DNA of 64,000 nt from Raillietiella orientalis (Eukaryota): positions 2,480,001 to 2,544,000 of the forward strand of contig JAYWIR010000025.1 in the NCBI GenBank assembly GCA_036172245.1. Reading direction: 5' to 3'. The position numbers were made by a program, and so were the translations under genes. A model generated the notes under the pieces. The model made no database searches and was not told the DNA's origin. It saw only the letters and a program-made list of their open reading frames with translations. Below are positions 8,600 through 64,000 of this stretch, one piece after another. The stretch's first letter is position 1; each line of letters opens with the position of its first letter.

Positions 8600-10960
8600 C
8601 AACCCACTATTTCCAAGAATGCCAACCGGAAAAAAGAGGCGATCTAGAGATGCTTATATCTTTCGTCATTCTAATGTCGGCATGAAGACCGAAGTCAAAA
8701 GAACGAAAGGAAAACGGGAAATCCTTTCTTTTCATCCTGCAGCAGCCCACCTGGCGAAGCCACAACGGATAACCTTCCGTTCTTTTCCGCCGCCACATGC
8801 CTCACTTGCACCAAAGCCGAACTGTAAAGATTTCACTGCAGGTTCTCCGAGTTTTGTCCCAGGTCAGCAGCAGATCGCAAAAGCGGCGGCCTGTTGGATC
8901 GAAACCTTTTCGAAGTCTTTGAGCCGGGAAGAGCAGAATGCATTGAGGTCCGAACTCACCCGGCACAACAAGCAGCATCCGTGGCTTGATGCGAACTCAG
9001 CATGATCGCCTTCCCGTCCCAGCTTTCAGCTCCGGGCCCACTCCCAGGGGAGGCTGATTTAAGGCCGTGAGACTTCCTTGTATGCTGCGACAATCGCTTG
9101 TATAGCGGAACTGAGGAGGAGTGCCTCCTGACCCGGGCTGCCAGTCCGCCATGCCCTCCGGAGATTGTGGTTTTACATTGCTGACACTGTGGTTGAGGGG
9201 TAGACTAGGGATTCTTCTCTCAGGAACGCATCCCTCTGCGCATGCGATCGGCGTCATCCTTACTGGACGGTGCCCGCACATTCGGCCTCTCAGCACTTAT
9301 GAATCGTAGCCCTCCACATATGAGGTGTTGTGAATTGAACAGAAAGTATCTCCACGCACTAAGCCGCGTAACACAGGACACTGCTTCTTAGTTCACGACC
9401 TAGGAAAAGACGGTCTGCAGCAGCAAGGAAGGAGGTGGCCCAGCCCGCGCACGCTTTTTTTGCAGCTGTCAGACCAGCGATCCAAGGAGGACTGCGGTAC
9501 CAAAGTGGTTGCCTCCTGGAGGAACAGCGACAAACGGCCTGAAGCACCCATCCACCTGTATTATCTCAGAAGGAGGTTCATGAGCTAGGAAAACTTACCC
9601 GTCCTGATAGATCTATTTAAACTGAGGGCATGACTGTCCTCGGGATGTTCGGTTCCCAGTAGCGAAGATCACGAATGTCTGCGTACGGTCTCGGCAACCC
9701 CATTTCTTCACTCTCGAGTTCGCAGGAACCAGGGCAGCAGGACGGTGGAAGCGCGAATGGACGCACGCGTTCCTCAGGCGATGGGCAGCAGGGTGGCCTG
9801 CCTACGTTTCCCTTCCTTCTCTCGGGCCTGCTGGAAGCCGTCTGGGATGCTGCTATCAGAGCAGCAACAGACCCACCTCGATGACAAGTGCGCAATCTGT
9901 CTTTCCAGGAGCCAACCAAGTCGTCCAGATAGATGACCCATCTCCTCCTGTTCGATGAACACTTTCCGGATTCTCGTCGTGCCGAGGAGAACACAGACGA
10001 GAGTTCCTCGTGGGGTGGGTTAGAGTGTGAGACAGTGTCTCGTCCCATCGCCGGCAGCGGCAAGAAGAGCCCTCGGCCAGCATCCTTCCGGCATCTCTCC
10101 GTATGGCGAGAACGCTGAGAACTTGAACAGATTTTTATTTCTGATGCAGAGGAAATGGTCCCCTCCCAGGTCAGGTAATGTTGGGAAAAGTCGCAAGTCG
10201 GGCCCCCCTCTTACCAGGATGGATCATCCTTCATCGAAGGATCAATTGGTCCTCATGGAGGAGTACCATTCCCTCCACTAATCTATGGATTGCTGGTCCA
10301 CGCAAGAGTATCCGCGTTGTCCTCGGGCACGAATCTGACGAGACAGCTGCAGGATCCGTTTGCTCACCATCGCCCTGAGTTTTGGCCCATTGGTGTCCGT
10401 CCAACCGAAGAACCAGTCGCGCGCGATTCCAGAGATTCGGTGTCGAGTGTCATCCATCAGGGGATAACCGTAGATCTACGCGACTACGGAAATTTCGGCG
10501 TTTCAGAGGAGGCCGCCTTCCCGAAACGGAAGGCGAACCTCCTGGAGGATAGCGATTCACCACCCCACCATCCCACCCCCTCCCACGCATCCACCGAGCC
10601 GAAAATCTGAACTGAACTTCGGGATGGAGGTTCACGGCCATCCTCTCGCTGACAGCTGTCGAAGAGATCCCGGAGGAGCTCCCTGAGCTGCGGGTTTCGC
10701 AGCCGCCCACGTCCCGCTGGAAATCGGGATGCCGTGAGCAAGAGTGCGTGTTCGCCCTGGCCTAGCCTTTCCTTCCAGATGCGGCAGCGAATGTTGCTCG
10801 GCGAGAACCTCCTCCCCTTCCGATACAGCTGCGGATTTTCCGCCTCTCCTTTTCCTGAAATTCCTTCCTGCCATCGCAAGAAGAGGAAAAACAGAAGAGG
10901 CGAGTGTCGTTCTTCTTCATCGCCGGGACGAAGAGGCGACACTCCCAAATCGACTCGGGA
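8600..10960 (-). mobile_element. degenerate LINE RT region + 3' UTR
   Basis: FIEQEEM (LDQEKAF-like, ~9950), KRRQATLLP (VRQGCPLSP-like, ~9800), PYADI (YADD-like, ~9680). 3'UTR hairpin TCGGT-CTTCAT-GCCGA at 8677-8692 (minus). Confidence 0.55.
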
Positions 10961-10969
10961 GATCCGCCC

Positions 10970-11707
10970 TGGCCCGCGTTGGCTGCCACGTGACACCAAG
11001 CGTCGCGGGTTCGAATCCCGTCCGGGGAAGGACCCACGGCGAGAACGGCAAGGGAGGGAGGCGCTGCGGACCCGAGTCTCCCCCTCCCGTAGGACGACGA
11101 CGCCGGTTGGCTTCGGGCGGCCTCGGATGCGGCACCGGCAGAAGCAGCCGGATGCCTGGCCAGAATTGGAAGTCGACCCATTGGAACGTCCGACTCTAGG
11201 GGGCTTGCGTTGCCTCTGCAGAGTGTCAAGAAGCGCGCTGCTTCCTCCGGGGAAACCTCTCTAGAGAAATTTGGAGGCTTCCCTTCAGAGTTCTCTCTTC
11301 AGAGAAAGAGGATGCAAGGAGAGGTTTCCTTGAAGGTTACCTCCGGAGAAGAAACTCCAGGAGCGGATCCCTTCCGGGTTCCCTTTGGAGAAGAAACGGG
11401 AAGCGGTCCCTGGTCAGAGGGTTCCTCCGGAAGGGGAGAGGAAGCGGTTCCCTCCGGGGTTCCTCTCCCAAACGCTAGAGGATCGGACTCCTTCCACAGG
11501 AGCCTTCCCACATTCAGAGGGTGTTCCCTACGGGGTTACTGCCTATGAATTGAAGAGTCACAGGCACTCTCAGGTGCCGTGGACAGCGCTGAAGAGCTTC
11601 TCGGGACCATCGTAAGGAGGTTCTTCAGCACTTGGCAGAAACCGGAAAAAAGAAAGAAGCTGGAAGGAAAGCGGCGAAAACAGAGAAATCCCAAAGCTTT
11701 TCCATCA
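10970..11707 (+). mobile_element. tRNA-headed SINE-like structured repeat, copy 1 (divergent)
   Basis: T-arm/B-box GCGGG-TTCGAAT-CCCG (11005-11020). Hairpin-array body homologous to the 20558 and 58628 copies. 3' stem GCTGAAGAGC...GTTCTTCAGC (11588-11629), then A-rich tract and shared tail ending TTTCCATCA. Confidence 0.8.
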
Positions 11708-11709
11708 CA

Positions 11710-20500: not shown

Positions 20501-20557
20501 CAAAACAGAAAAAAAGCCGTCTGAAATTTGAAAAAAAAGAAAAAAAGACAAACGTGT

Positions 20558-21369
20558 TGGCGGCAGCCGTGTGGCTGCCGTCTCCACCCCTGGAGATACC
20601 CAGCGTTGTAGGTTCGACTCCCACCAGGGGGAAAGGATCGACGCCAAAAACAGGTTGTGGGTTTCGAGTCCTCCCCCTCCTTCCGTGGGACGGCGCTGGT
20701 TGGTCTGTAGGCTTCAGGTGCGGTGGCACTGGTGAATTCCCCGTCGACTGGCCAGGATCGGGAGTTGACCCTCCGGGGTCTTTCCAGGAATCAAGGGGTC
20801 GGTCCAATCGAGGTTGCTCTCCGGTTGTGACAATGGAGCCGGTTGATACCCCCCCTCGGTGGGATTGCCTCTCCAGAGTGTCTGGAAGCTCTCTGTTCCC
20901 TTCGGGGAACCTCCCTTCAGAGAGAAATTGGACAGCGTCCCTTAGCGGTTCTCTTCGGAGGAGGAGGATGCAAGGAGCGGTTCCCTTGCGGGTTCCCTCC
21001 GGAGAAGAAATTCCAGGAGTGGATCCCTTCCGGGAGCCCCCTTCGGAGAGGAAATGAGGACCGACCTCACAAACTGGATGGTCCTTCCGGATAGAACAAG
21101 GAATTGGTGGTTTCCTTGGGGGTTTCTCTCCCAAAAGTAAGAACGGACTCCTTCCCTCTGGAGTCCTCCTGGATTCAGAGGGTGGTCCCTTCCCTGAGTA
21201 CCCCCGCTAACTCGGAAAGTTGATACGCGCCCTCGGGTGGTGTGGACAGTGCTTAAAGAGCTTCGTAAGCTCCCCCTAAGGGGGCAGACAGTTCTTCAGA
21301 ACTTCGCTAACCAAAAAAAAAAACTGGAAGGAAAGCAGGGAAATAAAGAACCTCAAAGGATTTCCGTCA
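20558..21369 (+). mobile_element. tRNA-headed SINE-like structured repeat, copy 2
   Basis: B-box GGTTCGACTCC (20611-20621). Near-identical over hundreds of bp to 58628-59370 and to the reverse complement of 62414-63230. Hairpin array, 3' stem-loop, A-tract, tail ending TTTCCGTCA. Confidence 0.9.
20611..20621 (+). promoter_or_regulatory. RNA Pol III type-2 B-box
   Basis: GGTTCGACTCC matches the GGTTCGANNCC consensus, with an A-box-like TGGCGGCAGCCGTGTGG upstream at ~20558. Confidence 0.6.
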
Positions 21370-21699
21370 TCCTGGACCAACAGTAACGATCTCCCTGTGA
21401 GTTTGCTACTGGCCTTTCCTCAAAAAAAGAAAAAGAAATGCAAGAATCAAACGCGGGACTGGAAGAAAGCATACAGGACAACGTGGAAGCCTCGGGCCGT
21501 CTCGCTCCTGGCGTGCGACCCCCTTTTCCCGGCAGGTGCAACCAAAGCACCATCTGCAATATTGCAAGGGATCAGACCTCCCCTGCCTTTTAGCCTCAGC
21601 GAGACCCCAAATCTCTGCTCCTCCTGGTTCACTCTTGCCCTTTTCGAGAGCCCGTCGAAGGGTTTCCGACCCAATGCTCTGTTACCGCTGTCACTCGCC

Positions 21700-37649: not shown

Positions 37650-39700
37650 TGTCTTACTGCTGTTGTTGTTGTTGTCCTAAAAAAGTTTTTGATTTTACCC
37701 GGCACAACCGGGCAAAAATCTTCGAGGAGGCGAAGATCGCGGTGGTGCTTCCTCAGCAGCAGACATACGCTTTGCACGCGCACTTTTCCTGCAGCTCTCT
37801 CTCCTTCTGCCGAGCTCCTCACACGACTTTCCCAGGAGTTCCTTCAGTCCCCTCATCTCCCAACCTGAAGGTTCCTCCGAGGAGCTCCGGGAAGAGAATC
37901 GCTGACCAGTAGGACAAGAAGGCGAATTCCACGGGGAGGTCCGGAAACCTTCCAGCGACTCCCCAGTCCTTCCTTTGCTGGTGAGCGTCGCAGGGACTTG
38001 TGCGGCCTCGCACGCCAAGAGATGCAGGGGAAAAGAACGAGCTCCTGCCCTCCATCGAGGGACTCTTTCTCGAGTGGCTCGGGGAATGCCGCGCGACGCC
38101 CTCTCTCGCGGGTGCTCGCGCCGAGCAAACATGGAAGGGTAGAAGGACCCAGAGATCCCGATGCTCACTTCACCAGGCCGGGGAGGCCTCCGCGCTCCCT
38201 GGCCGCTCCATTTGCCTCTGAAGGCACCGTCTTCTCTCATTCGTCTGGAGCACCAAAAGCCGCGGTTTCGGATCCTCTTCGTGTGCTCCGTTGTTTCACT
38301 GCTCTCGGAGCTTCGTCCAAGGTCGCGGACCCTGAAGCGTTCCGTATCTCGGGATAACCAAGGGGAAGTTCTCTGCGATGCTCCAGTCTTGGATTGCATG
38401 CCGATTCGGTGGCACGCGCAGAAAAATGACTGCCAACAAGAGCAGGGATTCGCCTGTCCACCCCCACATCCACCCCGTTGGCGCCCGCGTGGCTGCGGTC
38501 TCCGCACGAGGTACCGAGCGCCGCAGATCCTTCCCTCCCGGGGGGGAAGGATCGACACCGAGAAAGGGGGATGCGTCGTGGGTTTCGAGTCTTTTCCTCC
38601 CGCAGGGTAGACGCTGGTTGGTCTCGGGTGGCTTCGGGTGCGTCCCCGGTAAACACTGGTGCGTCCCCGTCCACTGGCCGTGATTGGAAGTTTCCGGGGA
38701 CCTTCTGGGAATCAAGGAGTACTTTGGGGTTTCTCTCCGGCTGCGAAAATGGAGCCACCCTCGGGGAGGATCCTCCATCGCGTATCGTAAAGCTGGTTGA
38801 TGCCCCCCTCAGGGGGTTGAATCTCTTAGAGAAGGGCGCTGCTCCCTTCGGGAAGCCGCCCTTCAGAGAAACTGGAAAGCATTCCTTCGGGGTTCTCTCT
38901 TCAGAGGAGAAAACCAGGAACGGTTCCCTTGCGGGTTCCTCCGAAGAAGAAATAATGGAGCGGCTCCCTCCAAGGAACCCTCGGAGAGAATAATAAAGGG
39001 ATTCGTGGTTCTTTCCAGAGACAATCAGGACGAGAGTTTCTCATTCCTCCAAAATTAGGAGGAAAAAAGGACTCCTTCCTCCGGAGTTTTCCTGGATTTA
39101 TAGGTTGGTCCTCCGGGGTTACTCCCGACAATGTGAAGAGTCTCACACACCCTCAGGTGGCGTGGGCAGTGCTGAAGAGCTTCGTGACCACACCCCAAAG
39201 GCGTGTAACGGCTCTTCAGCACGCAGCTAACCAATAAAAAAAAATAGCTCTGCCTCTTGCTGTTTTTCCAATCTCGTTCGCCGTCCTGCAGGAAAACTTC
39301 GGAGCTCCAGGACTGCCTTTCCTCCTGCTGGCCGCTCGGAACCTCGTTGGATTCCCTCACGCCTCCTGGTTCGCTCTCCCTTCCATAGTTCCTCCGCACC
39401 CAACTGGATGCAGAGCAGTCTCGGTCCGTCCCACTCCGTCCAGCTGAGATGGCAAACATCAGCGTGCTTCCCTGGAACGCCTTCCCCCCGAAGGAGGGAA
39501 ATGCCTTCTTCCCCCCTCCCTGGGTCCTGCACAGGTCCTCGATCCTTGCCTACCTGGGCTGCTCTTCTTGCGCGCGTGGGCCCCCGACAGCGCCTCAACG
39601 GTGACTGCTCCTTCTGAATGCGTGCCCACCTCGCATACGACTGCGGTTCTTCAACCTAGAATTCGAGGGTGGCATGGATTGTCCGCTTCTGGTGGAGTGA
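37650..39700 (-). mobile_element. LINE 5' relic (ORF1 knuckles + EN start) interrupted by SINE copy 3
   Basis: SLGVRG (SLNVRG-like, ~38010), WSAILF (GVAILF-like). Knuckle relics CHL...RDC and LCR...GEEG at 39410-39540. Confidence 0.4.
38479..39245 (+). mobile_element. tRNA-headed SINE-like structured repeat, copy 3 (divergent)
   Basis: GATCGACACCGAG...GGGTTTCGAGTC...GACGCTGGTTGGTC domain and hairpin array. Perfect 12-bp stem GTGCTGAAGAGC (39169-39180)/GCTCTTCAGCAC (39211-39222), then GCTAACC and A-tract. First B-box decayed. Confidence 0.8.
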
Positions 39701-42779: not shown

Positions 42780-44770
42780 GCTACCTAGTCTTCTCTCCAG
42801 CCTGAGTCTCTCCAGGAGGATAGATGTTTCCTCTCTTTTCTCCTTTCCCGAGATGCAAAGAAGAGTCCCGAATAGGATCGGCGGAAAGAGGAAACTGAAT
42901 GCCTACTCTCAGGGGAACTCGACTCCAAGCTCCCTTACCCCACATTACCCTCTGGAACCTCTCGGAGAGTGATCTCAGCAGTCTTAGTGCGCCGTCAGTC
43001 AAAGAGCCGTGGTTCAGACGAACGGGGCTGGGAGGGACGGCAGCTGGAAGCGGCCGTCCATCTCCTTCTGTCCTCCCTTTCTCGTCTCTTCTAGCGCTAG
43101 TTTGTCACAGCATGGTAGGAGGCTGTGGTTTTTTTGCTCTTCCTGGAAAATCGGAAAGTTGATGGAGAACTTGAGAGGAAGGGCAGAAAATCCTTCTCCT
43201 TTTTTTCTTCCTTCTTCCTCCATTTTAGCTCGGAAGCACTTGGAGGTCTCTCAAGAACATCTGGAATCTGCAGTCCAAGGATCGAGCTCATCAAATCTTT
43301 GAAACAAAGGTCCTTTTCGGAGCGTTCTTGGGGACAGGAGAGAGAACTGAAGGCGTAACTGATGGTGCACAAGATTCCCTGCTTTTCCTGCAAAGTCTGC
43401 CCCTTCGCTTGCTCCTGCCCGCTGTGGACCTCCGAGACTTCTTCTGATCGATGTCAGGGTCCTTTCCTGTCCTATTCCTTGGCTCTGATTCCTCGCGCTC
43501 CTGCACTCGAGCGCTTCCTTCTTCCCCGAGGAATCCGCTCCTCCTCATCCTGAGTGTCTCTGTTCCTTCTCTCCCGGGAATTCTTTCCACACTTCTCCCT
43601 CTGTAGGCAGGTGCTGACTAAAATTCCTTTTCCGATATCTTCTGGGCTAATCCGGGAAGACTTGTACCATCGGCTCCTGTAGAGCCTTCCACCTTTGGTT
43701 CTGTCTGCGCTTTCTCCCCTTTGCTTTGCTCCAGGTTCCGAATGGCTACCGACCTACCTGAACCCTGGCACCACCTCGCTACTCACCACCCGCTCTGGCT
43801 TCGGCACCTCTTGCCCCGCGACTGGCTTCCCGAAACATCCTCCACAGAGTTCGCTCCGGATGAACGGGACCACTCGTAATTTCAAACGACACGTAGGGCT
43901 AGGAGTCTCGTTCTTCCTCGAGACCGATCGTTACCGAGTTGAATCCTTGACTCTGCATCCTCACTGTTCTTCTTTAGCCTGCTCACCAAGAACGTACCTA
44001 GAACGTAGAGCTTTGGCATTTGGTGCCAGTGCTGGTGAGCGTGTAGCTGCGTTTTCCACATGCGACGCTCAGTATCACGGGTTCTAACGTCCGTAAAGGA
44101 CCGACGCCCTTTACGGGTGTCCACCAGTAGATAAGGGGGAGTGCGGCTTCAGACTATTCCAGGTGCAGGGAACAGGAAACCTTCCCGCACATGTTGTTGG
44201 ATTGTATCGTTGCCCTCTCGAGCGTCTGAGAACGGTTAGCTGCGGTCCTTTCGCTCCCGATGACAACGGCAGAGAGGTTTTGCGGCGCCTCTTCGCGATA
44301 TCGCCTGCAGCTTCCTCCCTTACAGTCCCGTGCTGCCTGCTTGAGATTGCGGCGACGAGAAGCGCTCCGAAAGAGACCAGTCGAATGACGAGATCATCGC
44401 AGTTGTCTGCTCTTTCATGAGGAAGGCGACAAGATGGCCGCAACTCTGCCAACAAAAGGAGGAAGTTGCCAACATCCTCCAGAGGATGCTGAGAACGCCA
44501 GAAAGAAATCTGGGATCCCTTCCCCCTTCCCCCTCCCCTCCTTCCTTAACATTTTTTTAAACTGAACTTTTATTATTGTTTTTTTGTTTTTGTTTTTGTT
44601 TACCCTTCCTTTCCTCACTGCTCCTGTGAGGACCTCATCGGGGAGCTACTCACGAGAAGCAGCTCCTCCCAGGCATTTCTCTTCGTAATGGTGCTGCTGT
44701 GAAGCCACCACGAAGAAAGACATTTTTATATCTGATATGACTTTTTTTTTATAAATTTTTTTTACAACAA
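42780..44770 (+). mobile_element. degenerate LINE RT-zinc motif-3' UTR
   Basis: TDGAQDSLL (GV.QG.PL-like, ~43357), SRCREQETFPHMLLDC (44158-44205), CCLLEIAA, pyrimidine/T-rich UTR with GGACCTCA. Confidence 0.6.
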
Positions 44771-44779
44771 ACGTCCCTG

Positions 44780-45220
44780 CGTGACCGGGTGAAAATAAAG
44801 GAACGACTCCAGAAATGGGGTATCGTGAGTTTCGAGTTCCCCCACAGGACGCTGGATGGGGGTGGGCCTTTGGCTTTATGTGCAGCATGGGAATGAAATT
44901 TGCACACGTTGGAGACCGGATACCCCTGGAGACTAACCGGAATTGGAAGCTGACCTTCCGGGATCCTTCCAGGAATCATGGAGCCGGTTCCCTTCGGGGT
45001 TCCGTTTGGAGACAACCAAAGAGGGGATTCCCTCCGGAGTTTCCTGAAAGAGTAGAGAGGAATAAATCCATGCTTCGGGGACATCCTGGATTATTGGGGT
45101 ATTTCCTCCTGGATTCCCCCCTGGCTGAGTTACACATACCCACAGTTGGCGTAACAGTTGCCTTGTGAGCCCCTCCGTGACGGCATAGTCGAGCCTCTAA
45201 TGGAGTGAACTGGTTCGTGA
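44780..45220 (+). mobile_element. SINE-like structured repeat, copy 4 (short array, head decayed)
   Basis: GTTTCGAGTT...GACGCTGG, GGAAGCTGACCTTCCGGGATCCTTCCAGGAATC, GGTTCCCTTCGGGGTTCC hairpin, closing TCCTGGATT. Confidence 0.6.
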
Positions 45221-45229
45221 AAACTTAGA

Positions 45230-47150
45230 GGGCCGAGAGCCTAAGGCAAGTGTTGTGGATGAACATTACGAGCATCACCAAGGCTGCTGAATTTCAGATG
45301 CTCCCCTGACTTGATCGGCAGCGGGAAAGAGTGCTCGCGAACTCTTCTTTTCGGAAAACCATTAGTCTCAAAAGAAGAATGGGGTGGAGAAGGAAGAAGG
45401 TGGAGAAATTTCTGACTCTTCCTGGTGTGGCTGCTTTCAGGATCTCAGCAGATCCCTCCTGGTTCAGCGCAACCACTCAACGCAGCCTGCTCCTTGAGCC
45501 AATCAGAGCAGTCGGAGGTGCCATCTTTGCGTGCGCTTTTAGCATAGCATGGTCTTATCACCAGCGTGGCATGGATAATCTCAGTCTGGCCTTCTTCCAA
45601 GATGCTGCTTTCCTCCCTGGAAGCAGGAACATCGGGTGGCGAACGTCAGGGTAGGTCATCCACGAAAGCCAACAGCAACTGTAGCCAATCCAACATCTTT
45701 GATCATCATGGTGGTTCCTTGAAAATGTGTGTCCTTTCCCTTTCGGATCGAGCAGCAGCGCCTTCGAGACCGATTCTTCAAGGGGTTTTTGCCGGCGTTA
45801 TTCGGCATTCCAAGGTTCTCTTAAGTATCAAACTAGTTACCAACATCGGAATTCGCTGGCTCGATGTTCCAAGATGCAGCGATTGTCTAAAGCCTCTTGT
45901 TTACTCGGCAGAATTGTGGATTTTCCGCTCTCCGTCATCGGAAACAACGTGTAAACAACTAAGCTGATCGCATCCAATAGTGACCCCCGTCTTCTCCATG
46001 AATTCGTACTTTTATCTGTCGCATTACTTCATAGAAGGGAATTTGTCAGATGAGTATTCATTACGATGATACTCAGCGACTATCAACGTTCAGAAAGCAG
46101 TGTAGAGTCACGAGTGCCGGAGATTTATGGCGTCATTGTGTTGCATAAAAAACTTTTTGTGTTCCGCGAGCAGAAATTTAAGCAAACATCGTGCAATATT
46201 GATTAATATACTGGCCACCAGACAGGTGGCGTATCAGATAGTGAGCTGATAAGAACAGATACTATTCTTTGATCTTATAAACTATCTACACTTTATAAAG
46301 GAATATTGATTCCTTTATAAAGGTGGCGTATTTTTCGAAACAATGCGGTTCTGAATGAAGTCATTAATGAGTATGCTTCTAAGTGTGCATGTGGAACCGA
46401 CTCTGGACCACGCATCAAAGCAACGACGGGTGGCACCATGCGTCGCGGGAACGAATACTCCGGCAGAAACTGACGCCACTGCGTCGTTGGTTTCCGAGTT
46501 TCTCCTGCAATGGCGCTGGTTGGCCGATGACATTCGGGCGTGGCACCGGTGGCCGTTTAAGCCGGAGGCCCCTGATGAAGGCCGGAACAATGGGAATCGA
46601 CCTTCGGGTCCTTCCAGGAATCCAACGAGTGGAGAGTTCCCCCTCCAGTCGTACAACAGAGAGAGGACCCACTTAGCGGGAGTGCCCTTCCGGTTTCAAC
46701 ATGGAGCAGGAGCCCTCGCTGGCATCTCTCCTAGTTGTTCGATGGAGCCGGACCCCCCTCAGCGGGGGTTACCCTCCTAGTGGTCGCCTCTTCACAGAGT
46801 GCAGGAGTGCAAGGAAGCAAGCGAGAGCGATTCCCTGAGGGAAGCTGCAGCGCCCCTTCTGTCATTTCGAACTTTGATTGGAGCAGTAGTGAAGCACAGA
46901 ACCATGCAGCAATCGCCCTGCACTTCGGAGATCCCCATACGTCTTCGTATGTGCGTATGGATTTCTCCACGCACTTGCGATTACGCGTTTTTCGTTTTGT
47001 GTGCACGCAGTTACTTGCATCAAGAACAAGCATGGCTTTATATGATACTTCATTCAATTGCTGAGCATTCTTGTACATGCACCTTGGTTCAGCAGCAGCA
47101 GTAGTCACTTTATTTTCAATCATTTGTCTTTGGTCTTGGAAGGAAGATGA
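45230..47150 (-). mobile_element. degenerate LINE of a different (AT-richer, possibly RTE-like) family, interrupted by SINE copy 5
   Basis: LLLAFVDDL (LAFADDL RT motif, ~45652-45680), RRQKPL (RQG.PL-like), LVLDASNC (GDFN position, ~47020). Confidence 0.45.
46400..46790 (+). mobile_element. SINE-like structured repeat, copy 5 (highly divergent)
   Basis: GCGTCGCGGGAACGAATAC (decayed T-arm), stem GCGTCGTTG/CAATGGCGC followed by TGGTTGG, GACCTTCGGGTCCTTCCAGGAATC, several GGAG...CTCC hairpins. Confidence 0.55.
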
Positions 47151-52549: not shown

Positions 52550-54900
52550 GGTATGGTGTGTGGAAACTTTCTACCACGATCAGATTTGCAAAACCGAACG
52601 AGGAGCAGTGTACTCTGCAATGTTTTTTCTTATCAAATTAGGCAAAGATGGCATGAGTGTAGAAAATAGAACGAAAAAGTCCAAATCGGACGATTTCCAC
52701 GTAAATGGAATCGAGTGTTTTGCGCTGTCAGGCTTGAAGGTCACTTTGGATGTATGCTGCACTCAAGAACCAATGTATGTACAAAAGATGCAACATGGCA
52801 CATGGAAAATTAGTGAAAAAAAACAAAACATTGTGCAGATGATACAGGTGCAATACTATGTACAATGTCAGTGACATTTCTCTAATGTGTATACTGAAAG
52901 CTTGTTAATAATGCAAACTGAATTTGCAATTTTTAAGATTTTGGTGAATAACGCATTTTTTCTTTCCTCCAGACAACTTTGGAGATAGTTGACCATTTTT
53001 GATAGGTTACTCTCTTGAAAATACATACCGATTTGTGGATATTGGAATTTTAATGTTTTCACAACGTTTTCAAATTCATTGCTGGCACATTGAGAGAGAC
53101 TCACTCTACGAATGCAGCGAACGTCCGTGCAGTCGACGAGAATTTTTGACTGCCAAGACCGAGCCCCCAGCAAACTAAGATGCTGGCTATAAGGATAAAT
53201 CGAAAAGCTCGTAGCAACAGCAGGAGTCCCACATAGTACCAGAATACGCTAACAAGAGAACCCTGTACAAATAGTATGGCTAGATGGACTTCTTTGGCAT
53301 ATATGTTCTTCTAATGTCAGCGCTGTGATATTACACGCTTGCCACATTGCATGCCTTTCCTGCCGATGTTTTATGAAAGAATGTAAACATTTGCAGTTGA
53401 GATTGATGTGAAAGAAAGGTCGAAAAGAACAAATATGGCAGTGAGAGGAAAAACTGCAAACCAATGACAAAGGTCAAACTCACTAAATTGTTCGATTCCC
53501 CACCCTTGGTATGTCTAAAGGAAATGCCTAATTCTTCATTTATTGTCATAGTATTGCGTAAATTCGAAGAGGCCGCTACTTTTGACTGCTACGACCAATG
53601 AAAATTAGAATAGATCTCCGTTTATCATAGGGGCAAGGAATTGCATCCACCGAACCAAAGATCAAAGATCCACCCTATTCCTTGAGTACAGTGTAGTTTG
53701 ATATGCTTCTCCATGGGTGGTACGCATTTTCTTGGAAGCACTTGCACATTTTCTAAACCAATGAAGTGTATCCACTCTCAAAACCAAATATGATTGTCTA
53801 TTCTGATTCTGTGTTTCAGCTATCAACATGCAGGCCCCAATGATGCTGAAGAAGCTTGTAGAATACACTAAGAATTCCCAAGCCGATTTCTGATCAGCGG
53901 GGCAAGGACTGCACTCTTCAGCAGATCTGGCAGAATCTATATCCAAGATCTCGTGCTCGAAACGACAGTTTCCTTTGATCTGAAATGTTGCTGAAACTTC
54001 TTTCTATGCTTATTTACTGAACTGGGGAAAAAAAACTGATAGTGATCCATTTCCATGTTCACATTCCTCCTGAAGAAGGAACTGTGCTCTAATAAGAAAG
54101 ATCACAGAGATATCGGATCAGAAGGTAAAGGACCGAGGTTCTTGTATAACTTTTCTATCCATGTGTGTTCAGTGAGTGGCCAGACGTTCCACATTTTGTC
54201 AAAGAATTCAGTGCATGATTCGATCGATGAAAACACAACCAAAGGATAATGTGTCAGTTGATAAAAAAAAAAAACTAACTCTAATCGTTGCAAAGACACC
54301 TTAAAGTACTTTCATTAATTACTAGTGCTTAAACTGAACGTGTATGATCTTGTGTTACTCGTTCATTATCAAGAAAAAATGAGTTGGAAGATTGATTGCT
54401 TCATTCATCTCCTGGTGTTGTGTTTAAGTAAACCCAGGGGCTCATACCTGCTGGCTTACGTCCATCTGTTACGAGAAGTAATAAGATGGTACGCAGTCAG
54501 TAATCCTCCCATCCAAATGTGTGCAGTCTCTGGAGCCATATATGCTGAGGTATGCTGAGCTTCGTAGGAGTTGTAAAGAGCTAACATAGTTTGGCACGTT
54601 TGGTTCAGCCCTACTTGTAATGTGCTAATATATTGAATACTATTAGTGCTAACAAGGTACAATAAGACACACAAACACAAAATGCAATGGTATCTTCAGA
54701 ATGGCTTTCTTTATCGATCTCTTTCCAAACGGCGATGAATGCCGGACTCGATCAGGCATTCATCGCCTTTTGGAAGTCTTCTGGGATCTTCAGGGTGTAA
54801 TAGATCTATGAAGAAATCTTCTCTTAGCCTCAGATGCCTATTTGTTTCTTCAGGAAGCTCTTCAAGAGGCTGCTCACTTCCTCCTTTTCTCATTTTTGTT
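52550..54900 (-). mobile_element. possible decayed MULE-like transposase
   Basis: In order: VGLNQT (DxT-like), EFFDKMW...W, frameshifted N..IERSFS (NxxE-like), NCKC...RHA (SWIM-like). Very degenerate. Confidence 0.2.
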
Positions 54901-55099
54901 CTTATTTCATCAAGATACTGAAGATAAAGAAAGAGATTTTCAATCTTTCATCGGATTGTAAAGAGCAATCCTCTGCCTTCTCCACGTACAATCAAAAGTT
55001 CCGGTGGTTTCTTGTGCTCGGCTTGTCACTGTCTTTACCACTTCCCTTTCTCGAGCCACTTTTCGGAAAGTGAACAAGTATTAGTCATTTTCAGATTCT

Positions 55100-56999: not shown

Positions 57000-58500
57000 C
57001 GATGGTAGCAGAAACCCAGCGGCACTGACGTGGATCATCGACCCCGCATTGCTTGCTGAAACTTCAGAGGGATTTAGATTACTTGACCTTGAAGTCAGTA
57101 GCACGGCGACGAAAAGAAGACACGCTGCGGAGGAAACCCCGAGTCAATTCACCTCGCACTCCTCCAAGAGATCCACGAGATTCCCTGGGAGGGGGCTGAG
57201 GACATCGAAGGCAGCGCTGCATGAGCGTTCACACAGGGTCGCCTTCCTGTTGAATCCGGACGTGCGGCCTGCATCGCGCGGCATTTGTCCCGCCGAGGCT
57301 CATCAAGTAGGTCGGCCTGTCCTCAGGTGGTCCGCCCCGATCGATCTCGTGGTGACGAACATCTGGTTGCGCCAAGCGGCACGCCGACCGGCAGACTTGG
57401 CGAGACTCCGGAGGCCAACCGCTTGGTTCCGACAGCCCCAGCCTCATCGCTCATTCGACATCGGGGCAGACCTTGACTTCCGCGCATGCTTTCAGACGAC
57501 AAACGGGAGGGGAGGCGAGCAACCCGCAATGGTCGATTCTTATCTCGGACTCGTGCAAGGAGATTGCTGACCCGCGAACTCGTTCCGGAGGATACGACCG
57601 ACAGCATTTCCCTCGTCTACCAGAGGCTGTTTGCGGAGCGCGGATCGAGGTGCCCGAAGGCAGAGGAACGGCGCACTGACTTGCGATCTCAAGGTCTGGA
57701 TTCCCTCGGAAGCCGGCAGCTCGACAGTTCTAGTTTGACATCTGCTGCACCTCCTATCCTCTTCCTCCGAAGAGGGCGTGGGAAGCGATTGTGCCTTTTT
57801 GCAGATGTGCGGATGTTCGAGACGCCTGGCCGGATACAAGACCAGGGTCGAACGACAGGTCTGGCTGTCCAGGTCAGCTTGTCTTCTGGATGGAGTTGGA
57901 GAAGCACGCAGCCCCACCTCGTGCACAGAGAGCGATTCGATGTCATGCCCCCCTCATCCTCCTCCCCTCTCCTCCTCCTCCTCCGTGCAGCTTTCCGCGG
58001 TGACAGCTGTTGGCCGGAGAGTGAGCTCTCTTCGAGAGGAAGAGAGAGCGAACACCTCGACGAGCCTCCTCCTTCGATGGCAGAGATCACCCCCACCATC
58101 GGTAAACTCCAAGAGATGCGACGCATCTCCAGAGAAGGTCCAGAGAGGTCTTCGGAGGCCACGGCCGGCTTTTCGGAAACCCACCGAGCTTCTTGGAGGC
58201 AGCCCCTCCTTCTGCTTAGCAGAAATGCCTAAGACCTCTTTGCTCTTGGTGTTCGCGAATGGATTGGGAAAGAGGATGCTGCACCTACTTGGTGAACCGC
58301 AAATCGATTTTCAGCACTTGAGAGCTCGGCTGAGAACTCGGGCAGGCACGGCGCTGCTAGAGAAGAGAAGCCTCTTGGCTTGAAAAGAGCAGCCATCTAT
58401 TTTGGAATATCTCATGGATTCTGGCACTTAGCTTCCCAAACCATGCCGAACTTCACAATGAAGTCAGTTCTAAGGGAAAAACTCAGGTCTTCTTACCCAG
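57000..58500 (+). mobile_element. degenerate RTE-like LINE (EN to pre-RT)
   Basis: SAPIDLVVTN (S.ID endonuclease motif) and LDEPPPSMAEITPTIGKL (PPT..EV..AI..L, typical of the RTE ORF). Confidence 0.4.
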
Positions 58501-58627
58501 GTCTTTAGCTCCGGGATTGCTGAATGCAGAATCCGAATTCGGATGCAGAAGCGGATCGAGGAGCTCAGATTGGAAAGCTGATTTGATTTTTGTTTATTTA
58601 TTTAAACAACAACCCCACATCCAGCTC

Positions 58628-59370
58628 TGGCGACCGTGTGGCTTCCCGTGGAGCCACCAGGAGTTGCAGGTTCGACTCCTACCCGGAGAAAAGATCGACA
58701 CCGAGAACAGGATGGGGCGTTGTGGGTTTCGAATCCTCCCCCCTCTTTCCGTGGGACGACGCTGGTTGGTCTGTAGGCTTCAGGTGCGGTGGCACTGGTG
58801 AATTCCCCGTCGACTGGCCAGGATCGGGAGTTGACCCTCCGGGGTCTTTCCAGGAATCAAGGGGTCGGTCCAATCGAGGTTGCTCTCCGGTTGTGACAAT
58901 GGAGCTGGTTGATACCCCCCTCGGTGGGATTGGGATTGCCTCTCCAGAGTGTCTGGAAGCTCTCTGTTCCCTTCGGGGAACCTCCCTTCAGAGAGAAATC
59001 GGAAAGCGTCCCTTAGGGGTTCTCTTCGGAGGAGGAGGATGCAAGGAGCGGTTCCCTTGCGGGTTCCCTCCGGAGAAGAAATTCCAGGAGTGGATCCCTT
59101 CCGGGGCCCCCTTCGGAGAGGAACGAGAAGCGACCCCACAAACTGGATGGTCTTTCAGGAGAGAACAAGGAAGTGGTTATTCCCTTTGGGGTTTCTCTCC
59201 CAAGAATAAGAACGGACTCCTTCCCTCCGGAGCCTTCCTGGACTCATAGGGTGGTCCCCGTCCGGGATGACCCCTAACTTGGCGAGTTGACACACCACCT
59301 CTGGTAGCGCAAACAGAGTTAAAGGGCTTTGTGAATCCTCAGCCGAACGGTTCTGAGTACTTAGCAAGCC
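58628..59370 (+). mobile_element. tRNA-headed SINE-like structured repeat, copy 6
   Basis: A-box-like TGGCGACCGTGTGG, T-arm GCAGG-TTCGACT-CCTAC, ~10 hairpin units. Near-identical to copies 2 and 7. Confidence 0.9.
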
Positions 59371-61099
59371 CCCCCCCCCCCCCGAAAAGAAAACCCCTCA
59401 TCTTGGCCAGGAAGATGTGCTCATATCTTGAAGATATGAAAATCCAGAGATCGCGAGCCGAGAAAGAAAACAGTCTCCCCGCCGAGTGTACAGATCCTTC
59501 CCGTGTGTTTCTTATTTAGAGGACCGATCGAAATTCAAGTTCGATCTACTTCCTGAGCCTCGAGGGAAGCCTGGAGAAAGCGTTCGCCATTTGCTTCCCG
59601 CGTATGTCTTGCGTGGAAACGCCCAATAGCGTGAAGCACATCTTGAACCCGATGGAACAAGCATTTGGAATTGTCAACACCTTAGCAACTGGACATATTC
59701 CAGCCAGATTGGTCCGACCGTGTCCTTGAAATGCACGCACGCGGAACCGCGTTAAGCCCGCTTTTTTGCTTCATTCCCATGAGTGGACTTTCTGCTTCCT
59801 TTCTTCCCAACCATAACTTTCATCAAGGGAAGACACCTACACGCAGATGACATGGCGAATAAAGCAATCTGATTTCCCAAGACTGCGGTGCCCCCTGCCA
59901 ATTCTCTGAACCTGCGCGCACGATGACACCTCAAAAACAAGTGAGCCACCCAACGTCTCGAACGTGCATGGTGCCTTGCCTTCTTCTATCTGCAGCGTGT
60001 TCATGCGCGCTCAACAAGAGTCTCGAAGATTCCCAAGCTATCCCTATCCAGGAGTGAGTTCAGTGAAGAACAAAGAGAATGTTCTGAGAAGGACTTTGAG
60101 ATAAGTACGGTGTGTGTGTGCACTGCATTGGCTAGGTTGGTCGCCGGCTCATCTGAGCTCGCTGCCCAGTGGACGGTGCGCGCTTCCGGTGCTTCCTCGC
60201 AGCTCGAGGGGACGCCAAGAGTTCATGGACTGGGCCGGCGGGCCGTCAATACGTTCTTGCGCTGCCGCTGGTCGAGCCTGAAATCGCTCCCTACTTTCCC
60301 ATCCTTCCTTTCCAGCCAGCACTACATACTAGCGTGGCCTGATCAGTCCCAGACATGCAGCCTGGTCCCATTCCTCTTCTTCCCCTTGGCCAGGATCAGG
60401 CTCCACACACCTGAACCTGGCCCGCTGCCTACTCTTCCGGACGGATTCGTCCTTCGGCCTCAGGAAAGGGTAGCCGATCGGTCCATACGCCCGTCCGGCG
60501 GTCCGAACGACAAGCGGACGCGAACGCAGGCATTCTTTCAAGAAAGAGCATTCACCAGCAAAAGGACTCCCGTCCCCGACTCAAGAAACACACAAAAAAA
60601 AAATCAACCCAACAACATAAGAAGTCTGAACCCCTGTTTTGAAGATGCATGCCTGCAGCAAACACGACCCACGCAGAAACGGCTTCTTGCAAGTGAACTG
60701 CAGGTGGCAGTCAGCTGCGCGACTCTCCTTCCGGGCAAATGCGCGGCTCTTCTCCGTGATTTTACCAGTGGGGGCCTCCTTCAAGACCTTCGTGGAAAAA
60801 AGGATCTGAAAAAATTCCAAGGTGTATTCGTCCTCGTTTCGTTATGTCAGGGAGTGCAGCCGATGACAGGGAGATGCCTCATCATGCCCGGTCATCCCCC
60901 TCAATTCCAGGAGACAGTGAAGCACGGAAGGATACATTGTTTTGCATCCTCCCTGAAGAGTTCTCGGATAGAAAGAACGGCCTCGGCAGGAGCAATGAGG
61001 GTTACGATTCCCGAAACTCGGTGGCCAATAAAAGGTAGAGCACATAGGGAAGATGGCACACTCCAGGAGCGAGACACCTTCCAGGGACACATCTGTAGT

Positions 61100-64000
61100 C
61101 ACCAGCCAGGCTGAAGCAACCACCAGATGACTTCCGATTGAAAATCTCTCAGAATCCTGCCGAACGCACCTGTCGCCAATTGGAACGGATTCCTCTCGTT
61201 TGCCGGTGATTGTCGGCTGAGATCTTCCGGTCAGTAGCATCATGAGCCACACCTGTTTGGAATGAAGCTAAGCACTGCTCACCCCTATCACGACAGGCAT
61301 TGATGCAGATCGGATGTAGCAGCGCTTCTCAAATCCTGTTGAAGCAATTGAAGCAATGGTCTCGGCTGACGAAGAGCTGACGAGGAATGGGAGCGCTCAA
61401 AGATTCGAGCAGTTGCCAGGCATCATGCGGGAAACCAAGAGACCCGTTCCTCCCGGGAGCAGCCTGTGGGTTCTGGCGCTTTTTTGTGTTCGGAAGAATC
61501 AGATCGCAAGATGTGGGAAAAAGCGGTGCTTTCCAGAAACGACAAACTTCTCGGGGAGATACACGAAGGGGCCGAACCGAAGAACCCACAGTGACGTCTG
61601 GGAGTGCAAGGGGGTCTTGGGGAAACGCTGGAGTTGAGTGAAGCGGAGAAACAACCCTGTACCTCCTCTACATTATGCAGAGCCGGAAGTGCACAGCTTC
61701 TGTCTGGGAGCACAATCCACAAGCGTTTATCTTCTAGGGTTGGTGGTGAAGGCAGCGGAGTGGGTCCTGTGGAGACAACGCCTCCCGCAGGTGTCGGAGG
61801 TGGTGTCCTCTCGCCCTCCTCTCACTGCGGAGGAGATGCCGACAAATTCCGCTGCAGGGACAGCTTTGACCTGATCTGGTATCCAAGCAGCGGGTTCACC
61901 GCGCACACCCACTCGTGCATCCCCTTCTCGCAGACGGCCTGCAGCAGGTAGACGCACGTGGGTGTGACGATGCTGAATACGAAAGGCACCCGCCGCAGCA
62001 GCTCCTCGAAGACCTCGACGCGCGCCTGGGCCAGACTCATAACGTCCCTCTAGACGAGGTCGCGCTCTTCCCAGAAAAGCCTGCGCACCACCAGCCAGGG
62101 GCATACTCCGCGGCCTTCCATCATGAGGAAGGCGTAGCCCCTGTCCTCTGCTTACCACTCACAATGGAAAAAGAGTTTTCCCCGGTAAGGAAAGCCTCGG
62201 AGCTCCACATACCAAGAGGCCTCCCAAACGCCCTTGAATACTGCGAGATGCAAAAGTCCTTGCTGTGTTCGAGAGCCCTCAAATTGGCCATCATCCGGAA
62301 TTCGGCGCTGCTGTCTTGCTTCCTTCCCTACGTTGCCAGTTGACCATTCATTCTCCAAGGTGCAGCCAGCTGATCTGTCAGCGAACGTGAGCACCCCCTG
62401 TGCTCACATTTGCTGACGGAAATGACAGAAATCCTTCGGGGCTTCTCTGTTTTCTCTACTTTCCTTTCAGGGTTTTTTTTTTTTTGGTTCGCTAAGCATT
62501 CAAGAACCGTTCGCCTAGGGGCTCACGAAGCTCTTGACACTGTCCATGCCACCAGAGGTGTCAACTCGACAAGTTAGGGGTCATCCCGGACGGGGACCAC
62601 CCTATGAATCCAGGAAGGCTCCGGAGGGAAGGAGTCCGTTCTTATTCTTGAGAGAGAAACCCCGAAGGGAATCACCACTTCTTCGTTCTCTCCTGAAAGA
62701 CCATCCAGTTTGTGGGGTCGCTCCTCGTTCCTCTCCGAAGGGGGCCCCGGAAGGGATCCACTCCTGGAATTTCTTCTCCGGAGAGAACCCACAAGGGAAC
62801 CGCTCCTTGCATCCTCCTCCTCCGAAGAGAACCCCTAAGGGACGCTTTCCGATTTCTCTCTGAAGGGAGGTTCCCCGAAGGGAACAGAGAGCTTCCAGAC
62901 ACTCTGGAGAGGCAATCCCAATCCCACCGAGGGGGGTATCAACCAGCTCCATTGTCACAACCGTAGAGCAACCTCGATTGGACCGACCCCTTGATTCCCG
63001 GAATGACCCCGAAGGGTCAACTCCCGATCCTGGCCAGTCGATGGAGGCATCCAGCTTCCACCAGTGCCATCGCACCCGAGCCTACTGACCAACCAGCATC
63101 GTCCCACGGAAAGAGGGGGGAGGACTCGAAACCCACAACGCCCCATCCCGTTCTCGGCGTCGATCTTTTCCCCGGGTAGGAGTCGAAACTGCAACTCCTG
63201 GTGGCTCCATGGGAAGCCACACTGTCTCCAACGCAGACGACCACCGATACGACACGAGCGCCATCCGTCAAGACGAAAGAACACACGACGTACGCGGAAG
63301 AGAGTTTCTTGTCCTGTACGCGCAGAGAGCAACTAGCAGATGTCCAGTAGTTGAGATCACGGAACCTGAAGACGCGTTCCATGTCTTTGCCAACCGTGCG
63401 TGGAGGGACGGAAGCTCTCGTTACGGGAGAGCTATCCAGACGAAAAACCCGGATTCCGGCAGTTGACGCGGAGGAGATCAGCCGATCTAGAAGCTCAGCG
63501 GAGATCGATCTCTTGAGTTCTTGCTTCTGCCCTCGAACAGTCTACACGACGAGGAGCAGAGACTGAGAGCTTAAGCAGCTGAGAATTTCGAGTCCCTTGC
63601 AAAGCCGGGCATCGTCTCCTCTTCGAGACGGGGCTCATTCTGGTGAACGGTCGTCAAGAGAGGCTCACATGAAGCTGCGATCACTCCAGTAAGCAGTCAT
63701 CTCTAGATGAATCACCTGTCGCTTAGAGATTCAAGGAAGAGAGAGAGCAACCCGCCATCATCACGGGAACACCAGCGGAAGCACATCCACCTTGTGAGAT
63801 CACCGCCGAACGTTAGAGTGAATGGAGGCCCTTCACGTGTTGAACAGAGGAGTCCAGTCGTTTCTGTGCCTGTGACTCCCTACCTAGCTTGAGTCCAAAG
63901 GAAAAACACATGACGAGCTTGAAAAGAGGATCGACATCCTTTAAAGACTTCCAGAACGACACTTCCAGATCAATACTTCCAGGCAGAACAAACACAGCTT
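61100..64000 (-). mobile_element. degenerate LINE ORF2 interrupted by SINE copy 7
   Basis: SLSDR (SDH-like, ~63720), LPHDGRPR (~62120), PDQVKAV (LDQEKAF, ~61870), EEVQGCFS (VRQGC.LS, ~61655). Confidence 0.5.
62414..63230 (-). mobile_element. tRNA-headed SINE-like structured repeat, copy 7
   Basis: Reverse complement nearly identical to 58628-59300. 3' stem TCAAGAGC/GTTCTTGA, A-tract, tail ending TTTCTGTCA-TTTCCGTCA. Confidence 0.9.

What the first reader, a model, noticed from the sequence alone, without database searches (positions are those of the whole stretch)
58628..59370. Dispersed tRNA-headed non-coding family with conserved multi-domain RNA architecture (7 copies in 64 kb)
Seen: copies at 10970, 20558, 38479, 44780, 46400, 58628 (+) and 63230 (-). 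The longer copies share the domain order tRNA-like head with B-box, second stem domain, hairpin array, closing helix, 3' stem-loop and A-rich tail; copies 4 and 5 are partial. Copies range from near-identical (2, 6, 7) to highly diverged (1, 3, 4, 5) yet keep pairing, and no ORF is conserved. Known: tRNA-derived A/B boxes define SINE2 elements transcribed by Pol III. Inference: this is a long (~800 nt), long-lived SINE or Pol III RNA whose structure rather than sequence is selected. I do not recognise it as a described family.
Basis: partly seen in the sequence, partly recalled or inferred. Interest (0 to 1): 0.8.

Follow-up and report, generated by a model that had tools for sequence, protein, structure and literature searches.

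The report
Dispersed non-coding SINE-like repeat family
This is a real family of about 800-base non-coding mobile-element copies scattered through a eukaryotic genome, probably an unusually long SINE, and I found no good evidence that its RNA shape is under selection.

Summary
Identity ranges from 92.5% (c6/c7) to about 44-57% (c4, c5). No reading frame is conserved.

- **Head:** it carries an exact B-box (GGTTCGANNCC) in 3 of 7 copies. No tRNA model recognises it, and there is no A-box in c1-c3.
- **"Hairpin array":** this is a degenerate ~43-nt tandem array. The two oldest copies lack about 210 nt of it.
- **"A-rich tail":** it is not terminal in c1, c2 and c7, where a ~50-nt tail ending in TTTCYGTCA follows.
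- **Folding:** it is no better than dinucleotide shuffles.
- **Conserved-structure signal:** it is at least as strong on the reverse strand.
- **Compensation in old copies:** it is not significant.
- **3' stem-loop:** this is the only feature that stands out.

Most likely this is a composite SINE-type retroposon. No target-site duplications, partner LINE, genome, transcripts or Dfam/Repbase check were available.

The parts
58604..59399 (+). copy c6 (the reported copy), long form. It ends after a C15 run plus GAAAAGAAAA and lacks the ~50-nt tail.
   Evidence: nhmmer; no tail homology downstream
62414..63262 (-). copy c7, long form with an A13 run, the ~50-nt tail and two terminal 9-mers (TTTCTGTCA, TTTCCGTCA)
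   Evidence: 92.5% identical to c6
20536..21370 (+). copy c2, long form with an A11 run, the tail and one terminal 9-mer
   Evidence: 85-86.5% identical to c6 and c7
38457..39257 (+). copy c3, an old long form (68-69% identical to the young copies). It ends at the A-rich run and has the strongest 3' stem-loop.
   Evidence: stem-loop 39166-39232 has z -5.3
10933..11708 (+). copy c1, an old long form (65-67% identical to the young copies). It has an ~80-nt deletion upstream of the array, and the tail is present.
44758..45248 (+). copy c4, a very old short form lacking about 210 nt of the central array
46410..46865 (+). copy c5, the oldest copy and a short form. It ends in TTCTGTCAT and lies 125-144 nt from a divergently oriented U2 snRNA gene.
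58669..58679 (+). B-box match GGTTCGACTCC inside a T-arm-like hairpin of c6. It is also exact in c1 (11008-11018) and c2 (20611-20621).
   Evidence: 4 matches in the window against 0.77 expected; 3 of the 4 are in copies
58725..58736 (+). second T-arm-like motif, GGTTTCGAATCC, about 56 nt downstream of the first. It is conserved in c2, c3, c6 and c7, and with 2 mismatches in c4.
   Evidence: autocorrelation peaks at lags 43, 86 and 127-128 exceed the 95th percentile of shuffles in c6, c7 and c2; unit alignment; TRF finds nothing at score 30
59310..59368 (+). 3' stem-loop. It is degraded in c6 and forms a 10-14-bp stem in c3, c1 and c7.
   Evidence: z -5.30 (c3), -3.25 (c1), -2.22 (c7), -1.11 (c2), -1.04 (c6), +0.02 (c4)
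59369..59394 (+). C15 run followed by GAAAAGAAAA. The corresponding place in c2, c7 and c3 is an A9-A13 run.

Best explanation
The seven segments are copies of one non-coding, non-autonomous interspersed mobile element. It is most likely a composite SINE-type retroposon of an unidentified eukaryote. Shown: it is a discrete unit of about 780-850 bp in the long form (c1, c2, c3, c6, c7) and about 460-490 bp in the short form (c4, c5), it has unrelated flanks, and it has no coding capacity. Its fixed order of parts is as follows: a ~160-nt head with two T-arm-like motifs (the first an exact Pol III B-box), a ~200-nt middle part, an array of ~43-nt units, a 3' stem-loop and an A-rich run. In c1, c2 and c7 a ~50-nt tail follows, ending in one or two copies of TTTCYGTCA; c5 shares only the terminal motif. 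The copies fall into several age classes, from 7.5% to about 50% divergence, so the family has been active over a long time. Inferred: a master copy is transcribed from the internal B-box by RNA polymerase III. The sense strand of the three young copies has no T4 terminator for about 960 nt or more. The RNA is then copied into new sites by the reverse transcriptase of a partner LINE, which probably recognises the 3' stem-loop and tail. The central array grew by tandem duplication in the master lineage. The shared 'RNA architecture' is explained mainly by common descent, GC-rich composition and the repeated hairpin-bearing unit, not by demonstrated selection on structure.
For: The family and its boundaries are shown. 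It is non-coding. The B-box is exact in 3 of 7 copies, with 4 matches in the window against 0.77 expected; c7 has one mismatch. No T4 or longer run occurs on the sense strand before position 962 (c2) or 989 (c7), or anywhere in the 1080 nt read for c6, while A4 or longer runs are present. A-rich runs of A9-A13 occur in c2, c3 and c7, and an interrupted run in c1 and c6. There are no terminal inverted repeats. No element-type domain (reverse transcriptase, integrase, gag or transposase) appears among 283 ORF queries to Pfam. The 43-nt periodicity is shown, and the short forms lack about 210 nt of the array. The 3' stem-loop is strong in old copies. The SINEBase definitions allow repeats shorter than 1 kb, internal duplications and complex multi-module SINEs (PMC3531059, section 'Definitions', read).
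Against: No tRNA, 5S or 7SL similarity was detected. ARAGORN at default settings finds 0 genes in the window and 0 of 7 copies. Only at 80% thresholds does it call weak tRNA-Gly-like folds at the heads of c1 and c6, together with 6 calls elsewhere in the copies. The Rfam tRNA model gives no hit at E up to 10 in c6 (1001 nt) or in the c1 head (201 nt). No A-box within one mismatch of TRGCNNANNGG lies in the heads of c1-c3 (the rows for c6 and c7 were cut from the listing). No target-site duplications were found for 5 of 5 long copies tested. The A-run is internal in c1, c2 and c7. No partner LINE is present in the window. The long form exceeds the 75-662 nt range of the 175 SINEBase families (PMC3531059, passage seen). 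SINEBase states that A and B boxes are an indication and not a proof. Copy number in the genome and transcription are unknown.
Confidence: 0.55

Rival explanations
1. It is a non-autonomous deletion derivative of a LINE, or another Pol II-transcribed non-LTR retroposon. Its 5' and 3' ends would come from the parent element, as in RIME/ingi or NARTc/L1Tc (recalled from knowledge, not checked here). The B-box would then be a chance or relict motif.
For: The length of about 800 bp is above the SINEBase range. No tRNA model recognises the head. The 3' stem-loop plus terminal 9-mer repeat resembles LINE 3' ends (the resemblance is recalled). No target-site duplications were found.
Against: All five long copies start at the same 5' point instead of being 5'-truncated. 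There is no reverse-transcriptase-bearing relative in 64 kb. The B-box is conserved across copies that are 60-69% identical overall.
Confidence: 0.2
2. It is a non-autonomous element of another class, such as a solo or terminal LTR, a Helitron-like element or another DNA transposon.
For: There are no target-site duplications, a hairpin lies near the 3' end, and 6 of 7 copies share one orientation.
Against: There are no terminal inverted repeats. No pair of copies flanks a shared internal region. The termini are not TG...CA with 4-6 bp duplications and not a Helitron-type end, as read. The hairpin lies about 100 nt from the end where the tail is present. Six of seven copies in one orientation is not significant (two-sided binomial 0.125, my arithmetic).
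Confidence: 0.12
3. It is a family of functional structured Pol III RNA genes, or a SINE whose multi-domain RNA fold is itself under purifying selection.
For: The consensus fold is more stable than column-shuffled alignments (z -3.66, 0 of 63 shuffles as good). The tool's 3'-letter shuffles give 26 pairs with a two-sided change against 11.6 +/- 2.7. Pairs predicted from the young copies are kept slightly more often than the null in c3 and c1 on the + strand (71-73% against 69-71%, p 0.085 and 0.088) but not on the - strand. The 3' stem-loop is well kept in c3 and c1 although its apical sequences differ.
Against: Single-sequence z-scores are +0.39 for the whole element and mostly between -2 and +1 by domain, with similar values on the reverse strand. 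The RNAalifold covariation term is +8.05. In the fair null, compensatory pairs number 25 against 19.4 +/- 4.4 on the + strand, while the reverse strand does better (29 against 20 +/- 3.1, z -4.78). Copies carry large deletions (c1, c4, c5) and decay like neutral insertions. The array is a tandem repeat, which creates look-alike hairpins without selection. Only 5 sequences were available, 3 of them close relatives.
Confidence: 0.08

Closest known systems
tRNA-derived (type 2 promoter) SINEs as defined in SINEBase (PMC3531059; 'Definitions' section read, other passages seen)
   Same: It is a short (under 1 kb), interspersed, non-coding repeat with a modular order of head, body and tail. It has a B-box about 65 nt from the 5' end, an A-rich 3' region, subfamilies that differ by internal duplications or deletions, and many copies of different ages.
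   Different: The head is not recognisable as a tRNA by ARAGORN or the Rfam tRNA model, and no A-box was found in c1-c3. The long form (about 780-850 nt) is longer than any of the 175 SINEBase families (75-662 nt without tail). No target-site duplications were seen, and Pol III transcription is untested.
Complex or quasi-dimeric SINEs and SINEs with variable internal repeats (the CHR families mentioned in PMC3531059; the Twin SINE of Culex and SVA are recalled, not checked here)
   Same: Two T-arm-like motifs lie about 56 nt apart, which suggests a duplicated head. There is an internal A-rich linker, and a central repeat array whose unit number differs between old and young copies.
   Different: The units are ~43-nt hairpin-bearing repeats of unknown origin. 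It is not shown that the second motif derives from a tRNA.
SINEs with a LINE-derived 3' region ('stringent' LINE/SINE pairs such as UnaL2/UnaSINE1, and CR1- or L2-mobilised SINEs; recalled from knowledge, no paper read here)
   Same: A conserved 3' stem-loop is followed by a short tail that ends in one or two copies of a short direct repeat (TTTCYGTCA), and there are no obvious target-site duplications.
   Different: No partner LINE is available for comparison. An A-run lies between the stem-loop and the tail, and c3 and c6 lack the tail.

Membership tests
SINE (SINEBase formal criteria, PMC3531059) | Short (<1 kb), interspersed, non-tandem genomic repeat | tested here: met
   Seven dispersed copies of about 460-850 bp with unrelated flanks
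SINE (SINEBase formal criteria, PMC3531059) | [quoted passage not shown] | not testable with these tools
   No genome is held. No matches were found in metagenome or viral collections. Only 7 copies in 64 kb are known.
SINE (SINEBase formal criteria, PMC3531059) | Head at least 60% identical to a tRNA, 5S rRNA or 7SL RNA over at least 60 nt | tested here: not met
   Proxy tests were used. Rfam tRNA, 5S and 7SL models give no hit at gathering score in the window or at E up to 10 in c6 and the c1 head. ARAGORN at default settings finds 0 of 7; weak calls at 80% thresholds appear for c1 and c6 only, amid 6 other calls. The literal pairwise test against host tRNAs could not be run because no host tRNA genes were available.
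SINE (SINEBase formal criteria, PMC3531059) | Internal Pol III promoter (boxes A and B); an indication only | tested here: inconclusive
   The B-box is exact in c1, c2 and c6 and has one mismatch in c7. No A-box within one mismatch lies in the heads of c1-c3.
SINE (SINEBase formal criteria, PMC3531059) | Transcription by Pol III and LINE-dependent retroposition | not testable with these tools
   No sequencing run was listed, and no LINE is present in the window. The sense strand of the young copies lacks T4 runs, which is compatible but weak.
Non-LTR retroposon insertions in general | Target-site duplications flanking the insertion, and a 3' A-rich or simple-repeat tail | tested here: inconclusive
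   No duplication of 8 nt or more (one mismatch allowed) lies at the boundaries of 5 of 5 long copies. An A-rich run is present but internal in c1, c2 and c7, and a terminal 9-mer occurs in one or two copies. The exact ends are uncertain without more copies.
TIR DNA transposon / MITE | Terminal inverted repeats | tested here: not met
   The only inverted repeat in c2 plus flanks is a local 15-nt hairpin in the head.
LTR element (LTR or solo LTR) | Copies occur in pairs flanking a coding interior; TG...CA ends with 4-6 bp duplications | tested here: not met
   No shared interior lies between copies. No gag, reverse-transcriptase or integrase domains were found. The flanks show no 4-6 bp duplications (read).
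Described structured RNA family (Rfam 15) | Match to a covariance model at its gathering score | tested here: not met
   The only gathering-score hit in the window is U2 at 46115-46285, outside the copies. The best hits within c6 have E 0.88 or worse.

The most novel reading that the evidence does not exclude
The element is an exceptionally long (about 800-850 nt) Pol III-transcribed retroposon whose RNA fold is functionally required and maintained by compensatory change over a long period. The required parts would be a duplicated T-arm-like head, an expandable hairpin array and a 3' recognition stem-loop. That would make it a structured SINE RNA beyond the known size range.
Probability: 0.08. 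Interest if true: 0.6.

Novelty: new member of a known kind. Interest (0 to 1): 0.27.

Why it matters
If the SINE reading is right, this family would be longer than all 175 SINE families tallied in SINEBase in 2012 (75-662 nt without tail; PMC3531059). It would also be an example of a SINE body growing by amplification of a ~43-nt hairpin unit. That is of interest for repeat annotation and for finding the partner LINE of this unidentified genome. It does not open a new kind of biology, because the evidence here does not show a selected multi-domain RNA. For genome annotation the practical point is that about 8% of this window is this one family and should be masked.

Tried and rejected
- **Genome-wide collection:** no genome is held for the window.
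- **Public sequencing runs:** none was listed for 58300-59700 and no RNA holder was listed, so expression could not be examined.
- **Earlier scan notes:** none were found by place, sequence or words.
- **Other collections:** a conserved 23-mer with two degenerate positions had 0 matches in metagenome contigs and 0 in viral contigs.
- **Protein databases:** the translated 220-aa ORF of c6 had no homologue at E up to 1e-3. The copine exon ORF had none at E up to 1e-5 among longer proteins.
- **Identifying the organism:** this failed. The protein atlas only confirms the Copine family with mixed eukaryotic taxa.
- **Literature:** one search on GC-rich elements and AT-rich genes gave nothing relevant. 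One search failed on syntax.
- **Tandem Repeats Finder:** it found only the C15 run in c6. The 43-nt periodicity therefore rests on autocorrelation and a unit alignment.
- **Coding element:** rejected.
- **RIP or CpG-decay signature among young copies:** not seen.
- **c6 tail displaced by an insertion:** rejected, because alignment scores do not clearly exceed shuffles.
- **The shared CCCCACATC upstream of c6 as a target-site duplication:** rejected, because c3 and c1 carry it too, so it belongs to the element.
- **G·U against A·C counts as a strand test:** judged biased, because the structure was predicted on the + strand.

Full report
**Setting.** The window is eukaryotic. Rfam finds one U2 snRNA gene at 46115-46285 on the - strand. 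Exons of a copine-like gene (C2 and Copine domains) lie on the - strand at about 49.7-51.4 kb. They sit in an AT-rich island (36-39% GC at 48-54 kb), while the rest of the window is 50-63% GC. Pfam searches with 283 ORF queries gave only these gene hits at or near cut-off, apart from two sub-cutoff chance-level matches. No reverse transcriptase, integrase, gag or transposase was found. ARAGORN finds no tRNA gene in the window. I could not identify the organism.

- The copies are c1 10933-11708(+), c2 20536-21370(+), c3 38457-39257(+), c4 44758-45248(+), c5 46410-46865(+), c6 58604-59399(+) and c7 63262-62414(-).
- Pairwise identities are c6-c7 92.5%, c6-c2 86.5%, c7-c2 85.2%, young-c3 68-69%, young-c1 65-67% and c3-c1 60%. 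c4 and c5 are 44-57% identical to all others.
- There are therefore at least four age classes. Copies 2, 6 and 7 are similar, not near-identical.
- The family occupies about 8% of the window.

**It does not code.** Every copy has stops in all six frames. Substitutions relative to c6 are spread evenly over the three codon phases in c7, c2, c3 and c1. The translated 220-aa ORF of c6 has no homologue in the 5.8-billion-cluster protein set.

**Anatomy** (c6 coordinates unless stated).
1. **5' end.** c1, c3 and c6 share a CCC(A/C)A(C/A)ATC motif there, so it is part of the element and not a target-site duplication.
2. **Head.** A T-arm-like hairpin carries an exact B-box, GGTTCGANNCC, at 58669-58679. 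It is also exact in c1 and c2 and has one mismatch in c7. The window holds 4 matches against 0.77 expected, and 3 of the 4 lie in copies. A second, similar motif (GGTTTCGARTCC) lies about 56 nt downstream in c2, c3, c6 and c7, and with two mismatches in c4.
3. **Is the head a tRNA?** No detector calls it one.
   - ARAGORN at default settings finds 0 of 7 copies. At 90% thresholds it makes one antisense call unrelated to the head. At 80% it makes weak tRNA-Gly-like calls at the heads of c1 and c6 only, beside six calls elsewhere in the copies.
   - The Rfam tRNA model gives no hit at E up to 10, either in 1001 nt around c6 or in a 201-nt scan of the c1 head.
   - No A-box within one mismatch of TRGCNNANNGG lies in the heads of c1-c3 (the listing was cut before c6 and c7).
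   - SINEBase states explicitly that A and B boxes are an indication and not a proof (PMC3531059, 'Definitions').
4. **Centre (58955-59248).** This is a degenerate tandem array of about seven ~43-nt units. Autocorrelation peaks at lags 42-44, 85-86 and 126-128 exceed the 95th percentile of the maximum over shuffles in c6, c7 and c2. c1 exceeds it at lag 42, and c3 does not exceed it. The units align to each other. TRF does not report the array.
5. **Short forms.** The two oldest copies, c4 and c5, lack about 210 nt, roughly five units, at this place. Either the array expanded in the master lineage or it was deleted independently in both. The data cannot decide between these.
6. **3' stem-loop.** It has a 10-14-bp stem. 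It is strongest in the old copies c3 (z -5.30) and c1 (z -3.25), present in c7 (z -2.22), weak in c2 and c6, and absent in c4.
7. **A-rich run and tail.** An A-rich run follows the stem-loop: A11-A13 in c2 and c7, A9 in c3, and interrupted in c1. In c6 a C15 run precedes GAAAAGAAAA. This run is not the end in c1, c2 and c7, which share a further ~50 nt ending in TTTCYGTCA, twice in tandem in c7. c5 ends in the same motif. c6 has no significant tail downstream, and for c3 only the A-run aligns.
8. **Hallmarks not found.** There are no terminal inverted repeats. No target-site duplication of 8 nt or more was found at the boundaries assumed for the five long copies. The true ends remain uncertain.

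**Is an RNA structure selected?** I tested this in several ways.
- **Single-sequence stability.** The c6 MFE z-score against dinucleotide-preserving shuffles is +0.39 on the + strand and -1.11 on the - strand (20 shuffles each).
- **Stability by domain.** I folded four domains in five copies on both strands, with 100 shuffles each. Sixteen of 20 + strand values lie between -2 and +1. The exceptions are the c2 head (-2.70), the c3 array (-2.15) and the 3' domain of c3 (-2.98) and c1 (-2.45). The reverse strand behaves similarly.
- **Consensus fold.** RNAalifold on the five long copies gives -145.9 kcal/mol with an unfavourable covariation term of +8.05.
- **Tool controls.** The pair-count tool shows 26 pairs with two-sided change against 11.6 +/- 2.7 in its 3'-letter shuffles, and far fewer in slid controls. 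The structure was derived from the same alignment, however, and the tool warns that this inflates the result.
- **Fair null.** I shuffled alignment columns within classes of equal gap pattern and conservation and re-ran RNAalifold. The + strand gives z -3.66 for energy (63 shuffles) but 25 compensatory pairs against 19.4 +/- 4.4. The reverse-complement alignment gives z -4.78 (48 shuffles) and 29 against 20.0 +/- 3.1. This null does not preserve dinucleotides. The signal is not specific to the proposed RNA strand. It is what local GC palindromes inherited from a common ancestor would give.
- **Independent structure.** I predicted local pairs from a consensus of the young copies only and tested them in c3 and c1. 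On the + strand 71.2% and 73.0% of pairs are kept against nulls of about 69% and 71% (p 0.085 and 0.088). Compensated double changes number 8 of 19 and 9 of 17 against a null of 5.7 +/- 2.0 (p 0.175 and 0.088). On the - strand about 64% are kept (p 0.60 and 0.22). This is a weak trend in favour of the + strand and not a demonstration.
- **Conclusion.** With five sequences, three of them close relatives, the claim that structure rather than sequence is selected is not supported. The 3' stem-loop is the one element that looks maintained.

**What it most likely is.**
- **Other element classes.** A discrete, non-coding, multi-age interspersed unit without inverted termini, LTR context or coding partner is a non-autonomous mobile element.
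- **Pointers to a SINE-type retroposon.** These are the conserved B-box at the position expected for a type 2 Pol III promoter, the absence of T4 terminators on the sense strand of the three young copies for about 960 nt or more (a weak argument, since about one T4 run per 800 nt would be expected by chance), the A-rich 3' region and the 3' stem-loop plus short terminal repeat.
- **Fit with SINEBase.** Its working definition admits repeats under 1 kb, internal duplications ('quasidimeric') and complex SINEs. Its 175 families span only 75-662 nt without tail, so the long form would be an outlier.
- **Weaknesses.** The defining head homology to a tRNA was not found, target-site duplications were not seen, and neither a partner LINE nor transcription could be examined.
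- **Odds.** I give the SINE reading about 0.55, a LINE-derived or other Pol II retroposon about 0.2, another element class about 0.12, and a selected structured RNA about 0.08.

**Novelty.** I could not compare the element with Dfam, Repbase or the SINEBase sequences. Rfam has no match. The statement that it is not a described family is therefore untested. As it stands, this is a new or unrecognised member of a known kind (interspersed non-autonomous retroposons). Its modest points of interest are its length, the duplicated T-arm-like head and the expandable 43-nt array.

Noticed in passing
window 46115-46285 (-) and 46410-46450 (+): A divergent U2 snRNA gene (52.6 bits against a gathering score of 46) lies 125-144 nt from the head of the oldest copy, c5, in divergent orientation. 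The head carries a degenerate B-box-like motif. snRNA genes that use an upstream divergent tRNA-type A/B box are known from trypanosomatids (recalled). Here the arrangement may be coincidence.
   Followed up: partly
window 48000-55000: An AT-rich island (36-39% GC, CpG observed/expected 0.59) holds the only recognisable protein-coding gene. This is a copine-like gene on the - strand, with C2 at 51046-51432, a weak C2 at 50535-50690 and Copine at 49688-50002. The surrounding 55-63% GC sequence gave no Pfam hit. Genes that are AT-rich amid GC-rich repeats are an unusual composition pattern.
   Followed up: partly
window 59369-59383: Copy c6 has a run of 15 C exactly where c2, c7 and c3 have an A9-A13 run. 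It could be a homopolymer change, an insertion or an assembly artefact.
   Followed up: no
window 35050-35194 and 36449-36593: A pair of 145-bp inverted repeats, 87.6% identical, about 1.25 kb apart. They may be the termini of a small DNA transposon.
   Followed up: no
window 19103-19230 / 30684-30809, 40840-40925 / 41164-41249, 17132-17172 / 25074-25114: Other short dispersed or local repeats (72-88% identity) unrelated to the family.
   Followed up: no
window 29897-29907 (-): A lone exact B-box match (GGTTCGAGTCC) outside any copy. The surrounding sequence shows no similarity to the family.
   Followed up: partly
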